Positions 54,300 to 56,720 of a DNA stretch of 64,000 nt are shown here, in pieces. The stretch is from Escherichia coli (GTDB lineage: Bacteria > Pseudomonadota > Gammaproteobacteria > Enterobacterales > Enterobacteriaceae): assembly GCF_045037415.1 (NCBI RefSeq), contig NZ_CP173438.1. One strand, written 5' to 3'. Position 1 is the stretch's first letter; each line of letters starts with the position of its first letter. Under the pieces are notes generated by a model. The model did not search any database, was not told the origin of the DNA, and saw only the letters and a program-made list of their open reading frames with translations. Both the position numbers and the translations under genes were made by a program.

Positions 54300-56720
54300 T
54301 TAGTCCTCGTTTACAACCTTTTGCTGGGCGGCTTTTTTGGCCTGAACGCGGGCAATAGCCGCAGCAACTGCCGCTTTGCGCGGATCAATCTGTTCTTCTG
54401 GCTCTGCATTAGCCTGTTGCTGTTCCAGCTTGCGTGCTTTGGCACGGGCAATAGCAGCTTCGACGGCGGCTTTGCGTGGATCAACCTGTTCTTCTGGTTC
54501 CGCATTAGCCTGTTGTTGCTGTTCCAGCTTGCGCGCTTTGGCGCGTGCAATAGCCGCTTCGACGGCAGCTTTGCGCGGATCGACCTGTTGTTCTGGCTCC
54601 GCATTGGCCTGTTGCTGTTCCAGCTTGCGTGCTTTGGCGCGGGCGATAGCGGCTTCGACGGCGGCTTTGCGTGGATCAACCTGTTCTTCTGGTTCCGCAT
54701 TAGCCTGTTGTTGCTGTTCCAGCTTGCGTGCTTTGGCACGGGCAATAGCAGCTTCGACGGCGGCTTTGCGTGGATCAACCTGTTCTTCTGGTTCCGCATT
54801 GGCCTGTTGCTGTTCCAGCTTGCGCGCTTTGGCGCGTGCAATAGCCGCTTCGACGGCAGCTTTGCGCGGATCGACCTGTTGTTCTGGTTCGGCATTAGCC
54901 TGTTGCTGTTCCAGCTTGCGTGCTTTGGCACGGGCAATAGCGGCTTCGACGGCGGCTTTGCGCGGATCAACCTGTTGTTCTGGCTCCGCATTGGCCTGTT
55001 GCTGCTCCAGCTTGCGTGCTTTGGCGCGGGCAATAGCCGCTTCAACGGCAGTTTTACGTGGATCAGCAACGGTTGCAGCGTCGTTAGTTTGCTGCAGTTC
55101 TGCCTGTTTCGCTCTGGCTTGCGCTTTACGGGCTTCCCGTGCTGCAATAATTGCACTGTTATCCGGGCGTTCGCCCGCTTTAATCACAATAGGCTGTGTA
55201 GCCTGGGCCTGTTTCTCTTTCACCCGCGCCAGAGCGGCAGCAATCGCATCTTTATCTTTGGCTGCAGGTTGAACGGCTGCGCTCTTATGTCGTTCAAGGC
55301 GAGCCGTTTTTTCGCGCTCCAGACGAGCCTGGCGCGCTTCGAAACGCGCTTTGGCTTCTGCGGCGCGCTTTTCTTCCTGACGAATAGCCGCAATTTCAGC
55401 TTTTTCCTGACGGAAATATTGCACCAGGGGGATATTGCTCGGGCAAACCCACGCGCAAGCCCCACATTCAATGCAGTCGGCAATGTTATGCGTGGTGGCT
55501 TTATCGTGTTGCTGACCTTTGCTGAACCAGTACAGCTGTTGCGGCAAAAGATCCGCAGGGCAGGCGTCAGCACAGGCGCTACAACGGATGCAACTTTGTT
55601 CTTCCTGTGGTTCGCCAAGTTCATTGGCAGAGGGAGCCAAAAGACAGTTGGTAATCTTTACGACCGGGACATCCAGCCACGGTAAGGTAAAGCCCATTAG
55701 CGGGCCGCCCATAATCACCATTTGATCGGCAGAGGGGCAGAATCCGGCATCATTCAATAAATGACGCACTGGCGTACCCAGCCGTGCCCAGACGTTGCCC
55801 GGGCGAGCGATTGCTTCGCCAGTCAGGGTCACGACACGCTCGGTAATCGGCTCGCCATCAATAACGGCACGTTTCACTGCATAAGCGGTGCCGACGTTTT
55901 GCATTAATACGCCGATATCGGATGAACGCCCGCCATGTGGAACCTGCTTCCCGGTCAGAATGTAGGTTAATTGTTTAGCACCGCCAGAAGGATATTTGGT
56001 GGGAATCACCCGCAGAGAAATATCGTGGGAGTCCGCCAGCACCGCGCGTAGCATGGAAATCGCCTGCGGTTTGTTATCTTCAATGCCGATAAGAATTTCG
56101 CGCGGCTGCAGAATATGCGCAAGGATGCGGATACCCTCTACGACCTGAGCCGCGCAATCCTGCATCAAACGGTCATCGGCGGTAATGTACGGCTCGCACT
56201 CAGCAGCGTTGATAATCAACGTTTCAATCTTATCTCCGCCGCCCTGCAATTTAACGCCTGTCGGAAATCCCGCACCACCCAGCCCGGCAACACCAAACTG
56301 ATGAATGCGCTCGATTAACTCTTCGCGACTGCGAGAGCGATAATCGGCCCAGCCGTCGCGCGGGATCCAGCAGTCTTCGCCATCGGCATCAATAATCACA
56401 CTTAATTCAGCTAAAGCTGAAGGATGAGCCGTAGAGTGGGGCGCAATAGCCGTAACGGTACCCGAGGTGGGCGCGTGAACCGGCAGCATTTTGCCGCGAC
56501 CACGGGTAAGCGGCTGGCCGCGCAATACTTTATCGCCGACGCTAACGCACAACTCACCTTCAGCGCCAATATGTTGTTTTAGTGGAATGACAAAACGCTG
56601 CGCCAGTGGTACCTGGCGCAGGGGCGTACCGTTGGACTGGGTTTTCATCTCCGGTGGATGGATGCCGCCGTTGAAATCCCAGATTTTATTTTTTCTGAAT
56701 GCAGAGAATAACTTAAGCAT
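54300..56720 (-). CDS. rsxC: Rsx complex subunit C (NADH-binding, 4Fe-4S) with expanded C-terminal tandem repeat
   Basis: 806 aa, single intact reading frame; N-terminal RnfC core then about 7.5 tandem 32-33-aa repeats. Confidence 0.93.
54330..55070 (-). repeat. in-frame tandem repeat of 96-99 bp, about 7.5 copies, encoding [32 protein letters not shown]
   Basis: Near-identical 96/99-bp units visible directly on both strands within the rsxC 3' region. Confidence 0.9.

What the first reader, a model, noticed from the sequence alone, without database searches (positions are those of the whole stretch)
54330..55070. Expanded 96/99-bp tandem repeat inside rsxC
The C-terminal region of RsxC carries about 7.5 near-identical copies of a 32-33-residue unit ([32 protein letters not shown]), giving an 806-codon gene versus 740 in K-12, which is about two extra units. 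The repeat is in frame and predicted helical and charged. Copy number is evidently unstable between strains, so this looks like a slipped-strand or recombinational length polymorphism in a redox-complex subunit (Rsx reduces SoxR). The repeat also generates long artefactual ORFs in other frames and on the opposite strand.
Basis: seen in the sequence. Interest (0 to 1): 0.4.

Follow-up and report, generated by a model that had tools for sequence, protein, structure and literature searches.

The report
Known rsxC tandem repeat, VNTR ms11
The end of the E. coli rsxC gene carries a real, in-frame 96/99-bp tandem repeat whose copy number differs between lineages (seven full copies in this ST131 strain, five in K-12), but it is already used as typing marker ms11; only the role of its conserved 18-residue helix is still unknown.

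Summary
rsxC (54300..56720, minus strand) encodes 806 aa. Tandem Repeats Finder reports an array at 54347..55065 with period 96, 7.4 copies and 88% matches. It consists of seven full 32/33-aa units plus a degenerate terminal unit, against five full units in K-12 (740 aa). The array is not an assembly artefact: 66 of 66 sampled ST131 complete genomes have the same length. Across E. coli the count ranges from 2 to 8 full units, with 5 the mode. One ST131-background genome has an exact unit2/unit7 hybrid, which is the signature of unequal recombination or slippage between units. The polymorphism is already known. The published primers for MLVA locus ms11 (96-bp unit) match the window exactly on either side of the array, and a homologous RsxC repeat was described in Erwinia amylovora. 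Two results are additional. The units differ mainly at synonymous sites (pN/pS 0.05). Their 18-aa core, [18 protein letters not shown], is nearly invariant in the seven other enterobacterial genera sampled and recurs, each time with an acidic linker, only in RnfC/RsxC tails of Gammaproteobacteria. The core matches no Pfam, NCBIfam or PDB entry, and its function is unknown. Verdict: real, ordinary, already known.

The parts
54300..56720 (-). rsxC coding sequence, 806 codons plus stop
   Evidence: ORF. Pfam RnfC_N 14-115, Complex1_51K 139-283, SLBB 296-344, Fer4 373-430. NCBIfam RsxC equivalog 872 bits. Annotated as rsxC, 2421 nt, in ST131 strain EC958.
55200..55427 (-). Long predicted helix following the 4Fe-4S domain (aa 432-507)
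   Evidence: AF2 helix 2-77 of the tail model, with pLDDT 88-96 over the first 50 residues. It aligns with the C-terminal helix of A. vinelandii RnfC 8ahx_C up to aa 499.
55161..55256 (-). Degenerate upstream unit A (aa 489-520, [16 protein letters not shown]...), in the 32-aa register of the array
   Evidence: Register printout. The [12 protein letters not shown] stretch resembles the [12 protein letters not shown] stretch of the terminal unit.
55065..55160 (-). Degenerate upstream unit B (aa 521-552, [18 protein letters not shown]...). It contains I525.
   Evidence: AF2 helix at aa 521-550. An rsxC-I525F mutation arose in an evolved K-12 strain (PMC4759930).
54969..55064 (-). Unit 1 (32 aa, [32 protein letters not shown])
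54873..54968 (-). Unit 2 (32 aa)
54777..54872 (-). Unit 3 (32 aa). It differs from unit 6 at 1 nt after removing the extra CAA codon.
54678..54776 (-). Unit 4 (33 aa, extra Gln). It differs from unit 7 at 3 nt.
54582..54677 (-). Unit 5 (32 aa)
54483..54581 (-). Unit 6 (33 aa)
54387..54482 (-). Unit 7 (32 aa)
54303..54386 (-). Terminal degenerate unit (28 aa, [28 protein letters not shown]), conserved as the C-terminus in the enterobacterial RsxC sequences that are complete at the C-terminus
54709..54800 (.). First copy of the longest exact internal repeat (92 nt). Its partner lies 294 nt away, marking a three-unit block duplication.
54415..54506 (.). Second copy of the 92-nt exact repeat
55196..55215 (-). 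Exact match to the MLVA ms11 forward primer
   Evidence: Primer sequence from PMC8215070 Table 1.
54252..54271 (+). Exact match to the MLVA ms11 reverse primer (inside rsxD). The amplicon is 964 bp, which is allele 7.
   Evidence: Offset 286 and unit 96 from PMC4644529.
54195..55685 (+). Artefactual 496-aa opposite-strand ORF
   Evidence: pN/pS in this frame is 2.3.
54376..55272 (+). Artefactual 298-aa opposite-strand ORF (Cys/Ser/Ala-rich repeat)
   Evidence: pN/pS is 0.11, which is expected because its third codon positions coincide with those of rsxC.
54311..55156 (-). Artefactual 281-aa same-strand +1-frame ORF
   Evidence: pN/pS is 1.9.

Best explanation
This is an in-frame coding minisatellite at the 3' end of rsxC, already catalogued as E. 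coli/Shigella VNTR locus ms11. rsxC encodes the cytoplasmic NAD(P)H-side subunit of the Rsx/Rnf complex. Each 96- or 99-bp unit encodes a cationic, Ala-rich helix of about 24 residues, whose core is [18 protein letters not shown], followed by a short acidic Pro/Gln linker. The C-terminal tail is therefore a flexible string of identical helices. Copy number changes when non-allelic units pair, either by unequal homologous recombination or by replication slippage across the 20-92-nt exact matches that units share. Whole units are then added or removed without breaking the frame. The ST131 allele (7 full units) arose from a shorter allele by duplication of a three-unit, 291/294-bp block, and it is fixed in that lineage. 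What is shown: the array, its frame, the polymorphism, the hybrid-unit deletion, and purifying selection on the peptide. What is inferred: each helix is a sequence-specific contact element, most likely docking a protein partner or another part of the complex rather than acting as a spacer, and the exact number of copies matters little.
For: Array and frame.

Identity as RsxC within the rsxABCDGE-nth operon.

Identity as ms11: both published primers match exactly and flank the array, and the 964-bp amplicon gives allele 7.

Polymorphism: the spread sample of 59 complete genomes gave array lengths of 815 bp (1 genome), 719 (6), 617 (6), 521 (29), 425/428 (15), 329 (1) and 233 (1). The parsed alleles are 644, 676, 708, 709, 740, 772, 806 and 838 aa. 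All are in frame and all start the array at aa 553.

Not an artefact, and clonally stable: 60 of 60 best-matching and 6 of 6 spread-sample ST131-type complete genomes have the 719-bp array. The exact 806-aa protein occurs on at least 1000 public contigs.

Mechanism: strain TUM2826 has zero differences from the window in the 1656 nt upstream and the 87 nt downstream of the array. Its second unit is an exact hybrid of the 5' part of ST131 unit 2 and the 3' part of unit 7, which share a 50-nt exact match. Units 3 and 6, 4 and 7, and 2 and 5 differ at 1, 3 and 6 nt, and a 92-nt exact repeat lies at an offset of 294 nt.

Constraint: pS is 0.30 and pN 0.016 within the array, giving pN/pS 0.05. The ratio is 0.07 over 47 distinct units from 12 alleles.

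Conservation: the core is the same, with only occasional single substitutions in individual copies, in Raoultella, Cronobacter, Enterobacter, Citrobacter, Trabulsiella and Scandinavium, whereas the linkers are genus-specific. Erwinia matches at 17 of 18 core positions.

Structure: AF2 predicts one helix per unit with pLDDT about 70-84, and linkers at 51-58.
Against: No experiment or structure bears on what the helices bind. No solved structure covers them; the best match, 8ahx_C, stops at aa 499. RecA-dependent recombination and replication slippage cannot be told apart from sequence. The allele frequencies come from samples of 59 and 60 genomes, not from all 5,426. The TUM2826 deletion allele, and the fully collapsed allele in CFSAN004176, could in principle be assembly collapses, although the TUM2826-type protein is seen on 176 contigs. 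Alleles with only 2 full units are common (at least 1000 contigs), so a high copy number is clearly not required.
Confidence: 0.9

Rival explanations
1. The tail is only a neutral, low-complexity spacer or entropic bristle. Its sequence does not matter, and its conservation is a side effect of concerted evolution of the repeat.
For: Copy number varies freely (2-8 in E. coli; 0-5 in Erwinia). AF2 gives no tertiary structure, with pTM 0.23. No domain family matches.
Against: Concerted evolution would homogenise the DNA, yet units differ by about 30% at synonymous sites and about 1.6% at non-synonymous sites. The 18-aa core stays essentially the same across genera whose linkers are unrelated in sequence and length. 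It is recognisable in Vibrio, Pseudoalteromonas, Paraferrimonas and Celerinatantimonas, where three Ala positions are conserved in 125-127 of 127 instances.
Confidence: 0.2
2. The cationic helices bind anionic surfaces non-specifically. They might anchor RsxC to the membrane, or tether it to DNA where SoxR sits.
For: The core carries a net charge of +4. RsxC is the peripheral cytoplasmic subunit of a membrane complex, and SoxR is a DNA-bound regulator (review PMC12174285).
Against: The hydrophobic moment is only 0.21-0.22 and the mean hydrophobicity is negative, unlike membrane-targeting amphipathic helices. Each cationic core is paired with an acidic linker. The mean linker charge is -3.8, and 96% of 99 linkers are net negative, against a mean core charge of +4.3. 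The tail is therefore nearly neutral per unit, which does not fit a polycation that binds DNA or lipid. The near-invariant Val, Ile and Ala positions are not explained by electrostatics alone.
Confidence: 0.12
3. The extra copies are an assembly artefact of a repeat that short reads cannot resolve.
For: Many database RsxC entries are 'partial' proteins ending at contig ends within the array. Examples are clusters of 184 and 204 truncated members, and many partial proteins of 559-662 aa. One complete genome has a collapsed array and is annotated as a pseudogene.
Against: The array length is identical in 66 of 66 sampled ST131 complete genomes, including EC958 and JJ1886. In addition, 481 complete-genome records match the whole 1301-nt region at 99% identity or better.
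Confidence: 0.02
4. The repeat is a phase-variable contingency locus, or hides a real overlapping gene on the other strand.
For: There are long open frames on both strands. The 298-aa plus-strand frame shows a low pN/pS of 0.11.
Against: Unit length is a multiple of three, so copy changes never shift the frame, and the count is stable within a clone. The low pN/pS of the 298-aa frame is the expected by-product of sharing wobble positions with rsxC. The other alternative frames give 1.9 to 10.7. The 298-aa product is a Cys/Ser/Ala repeat of the same period as the array.
Confidence: 0.02

Closest known systems
MLVA/VNTR locus ms11 of the Shigella/E. coli typing panel (Gorge et al. 2008, J Clin Microbiol 46:1026, as cited and used in PMC8215070 and PMC4644529)
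   Same: It is the same locus. Both ms11 primers match the window exactly on either side of the array. The stated unit size is 96 bp and the offset 286 bp, which gives allele 7 for this window and 5 for K-12. The reported alleles of 4.5-7 overlap the range found here.
   Different: The typing papers read here treat it as an anonymous size marker. In the passages read, they do not name rsxC, the encoded peptide, the 99-bp variant units or the higher-order block structure. The original 2008 paper could not be read.
40-aa tandem repeat in Erwinia amylovora RsxC (Sci Rep 2023, PMC10587187)
   Same: It occupies the same position (starting at aa 553), in the same protein, with a core identical at 17 of 18 residues ([18 protein letters not shown]). 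It shows copy-number polymorphism of 0-5 and was proposed as a VNTR marker.
   Different: The unit is 40 aa, with a different Ala/Pro-rich linker. That paper did not note the cross-genus invariance of the core or the excess of synonymous differences.
C-terminal elongated helix of Azotobacter vinelandii RnfC (PDB 8ahx; review PMC12174285)
   Same: It is a helical extension after the 4Fe-4S domain of RnfC. It aligns with E. coli aa 445-499. It contacts RnfB and RnfH, and its function is stated to be unknown.
   Different: The A. vinelandii protein ends there, at 496 aa. It has no tandem array and no [16 protein letters not shown] motif.
Tandem short helical docking motifs on flexible linkers, such as ubiquitin-interacting motifs, and Ala/Pro-linked swinging arms of 2-oxo-acid dehydrogenase E2 chains (recalled from general knowledge, an analogy only)
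   Same: Repeated small modules are separated by flexible Ala/Pro/acidic linkers. The helix is centred on near-invariant Ala residues, and the copy number is variable.
   Different: There is no sequence relationship and no partner has been shown. This was not tested here.

Membership tests
RnfC/RsxC subunit of the Rnf/Rsx complex | N-terminal RnfC barrel-sandwich domain, NuoF-like FMN/NAD(H) domain, SLBB domain, and a 2x[4Fe-4S] ferredoxin domain | tested here: met
   Pfam PF13375 (4e-32), PF01512 (4e-48), PF10531 and PF12838. NCBIfam NF003454 RsxC equivalog scores 872 bits against a cut-off of 345.
RnfC/RsxC subunit of the Rnf/Rsx complex | Gene lies in an rsxABCDGE(-nth) operon | tested here: met
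   Adjacent ORFs of the expected sizes. The identical region in EC958 is annotated ydgK-rsxA-B-C-D-G-E-nth.
VNTR / coding minisatellite (locus ms11) | Head-to-tail repeat whose copy number differs between strains | tested here: met
   TRF reports 7.4 copies. There are 2-8 full units among 59 sampled complete genomes, and 12 alleles were parsed.
VNTR / coding minisatellite (locus ms11) | The published ms11 primers flank the array, and the unit size is 96 bp | tested here: met
   Exact matches at 55196-55215 (-) and 54252-54271 (+). Primers and the 96-bp unit are from PMC8215070 and PMC4644529.
Phase-variable contingency locus (simple-sequence repeat switch) | Unit length is not a multiple of three, so copy changes switch the frame on and off, and there is high within-clone variability | tested here: not met
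   Units are 96 or 99 bp, and all 12 alleles are in frame. 66 of 66 ST131 genomes have identical length.
Membrane-targeting amphipathic helix | High hydrophobic moment with a face of large hydrophobic residues | tested here: not met
   The hydrophobic moment is 0.21-0.22 and the mean hydrophobicity is -0.33 to -0.38. The only larger apolar residues are V, I and L.
RsxC repeat described in Erwinia amylovora | Tandem units beginning [16 protein letters not shown] at about aa 553 of RsxC | tested here: met
   E. coli units begin at aa 553 with [18 protein letters not shown]. The Erwinia unit is quoted.
Partner-docking short helical motif (hypothesis) | Direct, sequence-specific binding of the core helix to a defined partner such as RsxB, an RnfH-like protein, SoxR, or ferredoxin/flavodoxin | not testable with these tools
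   The structure tool returns no inter-chain contacts. No solved structure contains the motif.

The most novel reading that the evidence does not exclude
The 18-residue helix D-P-[KR]-K-A-A-[VI]-x-A-A-[IVL]-A-R-A-K-A-[KR]-K may be an undescribed multivalent docking module specific to RnfC/RsxC tails of Gammaproteobacteria. It is always paired with an acidic linker and present in 1 to about 13 copies. It could recruit a conserved partner to the cytoplasmic face of the complex, or cluster complexes together. Candidate partners are RsxB, the ubiquitin-like RnfH/RatB protein, SoxR, or ferredoxin/flavodoxin. Lineage-specific copy number would then tune a property such as how fast SoxR is switched off after oxidative stress.
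Probability: 0.25. Interest if true: 0.55.

Novelty: already known. Interest (0 to 1): 0.17.

Why it matters
As a length polymorphism it matters only in practice. It is a usable typing marker (ms11). It is also a place where short-read assemblies break or collapse, which produces many truncated 'partial' RsxC entries and occasional false pseudogene calls. The open question is biological. A short helix has been kept essentially unchanged from Escherichia to Erwinia and remains recognisable in Vibrio and Pseudoalteromonas. It is repeated on a flexible tail of the NAD(P)H-side subunit of Rnf/Rsx, and it has no assigned function and no structure. If it is a docking site, it would help explain how Rsx finds SoxR or other partners.

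Tried and rejected
- **Assembly artefact.** Rejected: the array length is identical in 66 of 66 sampled ST131 complete genomes.
- **Phase variation.** Rejected: units are multiples of three, and the count is clonally stable.
- **Overlapping gene on the other strand.** Rejected by per-frame pN/pS. The one low value (0.11) is explained by shared wobble positions.
- **Membrane amphipathic helix.** Rejected on the low hydrophobic moment.
- **Domain and structure searches.** Pfam and NCBIfam scans of the tail alone found no significant family. The only hits were the RsxC equivalog itself and two weak low-complexity matches, to NuoC PRK07735 (E 0.02) and to RsxB family PRK06991 (E 0.3). The PDB sequence search with the repeat found nothing below E 0.5.
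- **First protein-homologue search.** One search returned mostly truncated entries. It was of little use for tabulating lengths, but it did supply the other genera.
- **Literature.** The original ms11 paper (PMC2268344) and Lee et al. 2022 on Rsx-SoxR interactions are not held. No paper in the library other than the Erwinia one contains the motif string.
- **Fusion-construct AlphaFold test of partner binding.** I considered this and did not run it, because the tool returns no contacts and the result would not be interpretable.
- **Fold search on the tail model.** Not run: pTM is 0.23, so any matches would be meaningless.
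Full report

Tandem Repeats Finder reports a single strong array at 54347..55065. It has period 96, 7.4 copies, 88% matches and score 1090, and it also fits periods 195 and 291 at 91% matches. It is the only such array in the 64-kb window apart from a tandem pair of tRNA genes. The array lies in an 806-codon ORF on the minus strand, 54300..56720.

This ORF is RsxC/RnfC. Pfam finds RnfC_N, the NuoF-like FMN domain, SLBB and the 4Fe-4S dicluster domain, all within aa 14-430. The NCBIfam RsxC equivalog scores 872 bits. 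The gene sits between rsxB and rsxD in an rsxABCDGE-nth operon.

Splitting the protein at each DPRK gives seven full units of 32 or 33 aa (aa 553-778), with sequence [23 protein letters not shown](Q)ANAEPE[QE]Q[VI]. A 28-aa degenerate terminal unit, [28 protein letters not shown], ends the protein. The window is from an ST131 E. coli: it is 100% identical over 25 kb to O25b:H4-ST131 genomes. K-12 rsxC is 740 aa with five full units plus the terminal one.

**2. Artefact or polymorphism?**

I searched the 5,426 complete E. coli genomes with the two unique flanks joined together. The distance between the flanks in each genome then gives the array length. An evenly spread sample of 59 genomes gave the following:

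| Array length (bp) | Full units | Genomes | Note |
|---|---|---|---|
| 815 | 8 | 1 | |
| 719 | 7 | 6 | flanks 99.9-100% identical to the window (ST131-type) |
| 617 | 6 | 6 | includes O157:H7 |
| 521 | 5 | 29 | includes K-12 |
| 425/428 | 4 | 15 | includes ST1193 |
| 329 | 3 | 1 | |
| 233 | 2 | 1 | |

The 60 genomes with the best-matching flanks include the ST131 references EC958 and JJ1886, and all of them have exactly 719 bp. In addition, 481 complete-genome records match the whole 1301-nt region at 99% identity or better. The exact 806-aa protein is seen on at least 1000 public contigs. The seven-unit allele is therefore real and fixed in ST131.

The protein databases hold many 'partial' RsxC entries that stop inside the array at contig ends. 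One complete genome, CFSAN004176, has the array collapsed to a single hybrid of unit 1 and the terminal unit. In that genome rsxC and rsxD are annotated as pseudogenes.

**3. How copy number changes**

I parsed twelve alleles, of 644, 676, 708, 709, 740, 772, 806 and 838 aa. All are in frame and all start the array at aa 553.

Strain TUM2826 is identical to the window in the 1656 nt before the array and the 87 nt after it. Its RsxB and RsxD proteins are the same as those of EC958. It has only two full units, and its second unit is an exact hybrid of the 5' part of ST131 unit 2 and the 3' part of unit 7. These two units share a 50-nt exact match. This is the expected product of unequal recombination or slippage between non-adjacent units, removing five units in frame. 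That 644-aa protein is found on 176 contigs.

Within the ST131 array, units 3 and 6 differ at 1 nt, units 4 and 7 at 3 nt, and units 2 and 5 at 6 nt. Other pairs differ at 5-12 nt. The longest exact internal repeat is 92 nt at an offset of 294 nt. The extra length in ST131 is therefore best explained by one duplication of a three-unit block, which matches the 291-bp period that TRF reports.

**4. The units are constrained, and most are old**

Units are nearly identical as protein but not as DNA. There are 54 distinct DNA unit types against 20 protein types in the twelve alleles.

- Within the ST131 array pS is 0.30 and pN is 0.016, giving pN/pS 0.05.
- Over 47 distinct units from all alleles the ratio is 0.07.
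- Whole non-repeat rsxC differs by at most 39 of 1656 nt (2.4%) between the strains sampled.
- Typical units differ by about 9%.

Most unit duplications therefore predate the divergence of these strains, and the peptide is under purifying selection. 'Unstable' is thus true only on the timescale of lineage divergence.

The same calculation in the other five frames gives pN/pS of 1.9 to 10.7. The exception is the plus-strand frame of the 298-aa ORF, at 0.11. Its wobble positions coincide with those of rsxC, so this low value is a by-product.

**5. What the tail looks like**

AlphaFold2 was run on aa 431-806 as a single sequence. It predicts a long helix at aa 432-507 and another at 521-550. After that it predicts one helix of 24-25 residues per unit, separated by about 8 non-helical residues (EPEQQVDP).

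- pLDDT is about 70-84 in the helices and 51-58 in the linkers.
- pTM is 0.23, so there is no defined tertiary arrangement.
- The tail is 28% Ala, 20% Lys+Arg and 12% Glu.
- The core helix carries +4 and the linker -3.
- The hydrophobic moment is only 0.21-0.22, which argues against a membrane-binding amphipathic helix.
- The 32-aa register continues upstream into two degenerate units, aa 489-520 and 521-552.

**6. Conservation beyond E. coli**

In RsxC from Raoultella, Cronobacter, Enterobacter, Citrobacter, Trabulsiella and Scandinavium, the 18-aa core [18 protein letters not shown] is the same, with only occasional single substitutions in individual copies. The linker that follows is genus-specific in sequence and length. 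Internal copy number in these sequences runs from 1 to 6. Erwinia amylovora has the same core at 17 of 18 positions.

A full HMMER scan of 1.84 billion representative proteins with three units found only 91 hits at E of 0.001 or lower.

- The four long hits scanned with Pfam have the RnfC domain set.
- Six of ten representatives looked up are named RsxC by their sources: Vibrio vulnificus, Pseudoalteromonas, Celerinatantimonas, Paraferrimonas, Thorsellia and Erwinia.
- Twelve of the 13 shorter hits read look like C-terminal RnfC fragments or frameshifted translations.

A motif pattern anchored on the A-[IVL]-A-[RK]-A-K-A-K-K half was used to collect 127 instances from 18 divergent proteins. 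The consensus is D-[PD]-[KR]-K-A-A-[VI]-A-A-A-[IVL]-A-R-A-K-A-K-K. Three Ala positions are conserved in 125-127 of 127 instances, although two of these positions were fixed by the pattern itself. Unit spacing is mostly 27 to 96 residues. Cores average +4.3, linkers average -3.8, and 96% of 99 linkers are net negative. Lengths also vary within the Pseudoalteromonas and Erwinia clusters, so copy-number variation is general.

No Pfam or NCBIfam model and no PDB chain covers the motif. The best structural relative, A. vinelandii RnfC, ends at the first long helix. According to a 2025 review, that helix contacts RnfB and RnfH and has no known function.

**7. What is already known**

The polymorphism itself is not new. 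The primers published for MLVA locus ms11 of the Shigella/E. coli panel have a stated unit of 96 bp and an offset of 286 bp. They match the window exactly at 55196-55215 and 54252-54271, on either side of the array. They predict a 964-bp amplicon, which is allele 7. Typing studies report ms11 alleles of 4.5-7 in E. coli.

The homologous 40-aa RsxC repeat of Erwinia amylovora, with 0-5 copies, was published in 2023 as a proposed VNTR marker.

I did not find the following in the library: the link from ms11 to the rsxC peptide, the excess of synonymous differences, or the cross-order conservation of the core. The only paper containing the motif string is the Erwinia one.

**8. Function**

Rsx, together with RseC, is described as the NAD(P)H-dependent system that re-reduces and so switches off SoxR (review PMC12174285; PMC4759930). 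From memory, and not verifiable here, Lee et al. 2022 reported that RsxC is the component that contacts SoxR.

A K-12 strain evolved under phosphate starvation acquired rsxC-I525F. This residue lies in the degenerate upstream unit B. In one strain background, replacing the allele with an rsxC deletion caused no significant change in metabolic pattern, and the authors called the mutation 'null or neutral'. This is only a hint that the tail matters.

My best inference is that each helix is a sequence-specific contact element carried on a flexible, charge-balanced tether, and that the number of copies is loosely constrained. Alleles with only two full units are common. The partner is unknown. Non-specific membrane or DNA binding fits poorly with the low hydrophobic moment and with the acidic linker that accompanies each cationic helix. 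A pure spacer role fits poorly with the near-invariant core.

**9. Verdict**

It is ordinary and already catalogued as ms11, with a parallel in Erwinia RsxC. The residual interest lies in the uncharacterised, RnfC-specific helix motif.

Noticed in passing
window 21239-21396 (-): Two tandem tRNA-Val(GAC) genes form an 81-bp-period direct repeat. Rfam also reports 'HPnc0260 antisense RNA' on the opposite strand at 21114-21277, overlapping one tRNA. This looks like a tRNA-complement match rather than a separate gene.
   Followed up: partly
window 29989-30379 (+) and 3063-3123 (+): Strong Rfam matches to the enterobacterial sRNA STnc550 (387 bits, full length) and to rydB (83 bits).
   Followed up: no
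window 56713-56720 and 54299-54302: rsxB and rsxC overlap by 8 nt. The rsxC stop codon TAA is immediately followed by the rsxD start codon (TAAATG). This suggests translational coupling along the operon.
   Followed up: no
L009 (NZ_CP014583.1, strain CFSAN004176) 1950-2300: The rsxC array is collapsed to a single in-frame hybrid of unit 1 and the terminal unit ([28 protein letters not shown]). RefSeq annotates rsxC as partial and rsxD as frameshifted. This is either a real zero-unit allele or an assembly collapse.
   Followed up: partly
protein databases: Numerous truncated 'partial' RsxC entries of 559-662 aa, plus fragment clusters with 184 and 204 members, end inside the array at contig ends. 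Short-read assemblies evidently break there often.
   Followed up: partly
window 55146-55148 (codon 525 of rsxC, in degenerate unit B): rsxC-I525F was selected in a K-12 line evolved under phosphate starvation. In one strain background, replacing it with an rsxC deletion made no significant difference, and the authors judged it 'null or neutral' (PMC4759930). The residue lies in the helical tail, not in the catalytic core.
   Followed up: no
repeat peptide versus NCBIfam: The repeat gives a weak, non-significant match (E 0.3) to the C-terminal part of RsxB family PRK06991. That family's 284-position model is much longer than the 192-aa rsxB ORF in this window. It may mean that similar Ala/Lys-rich tails sit on RsxB in other lineages.
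   Followed up: no
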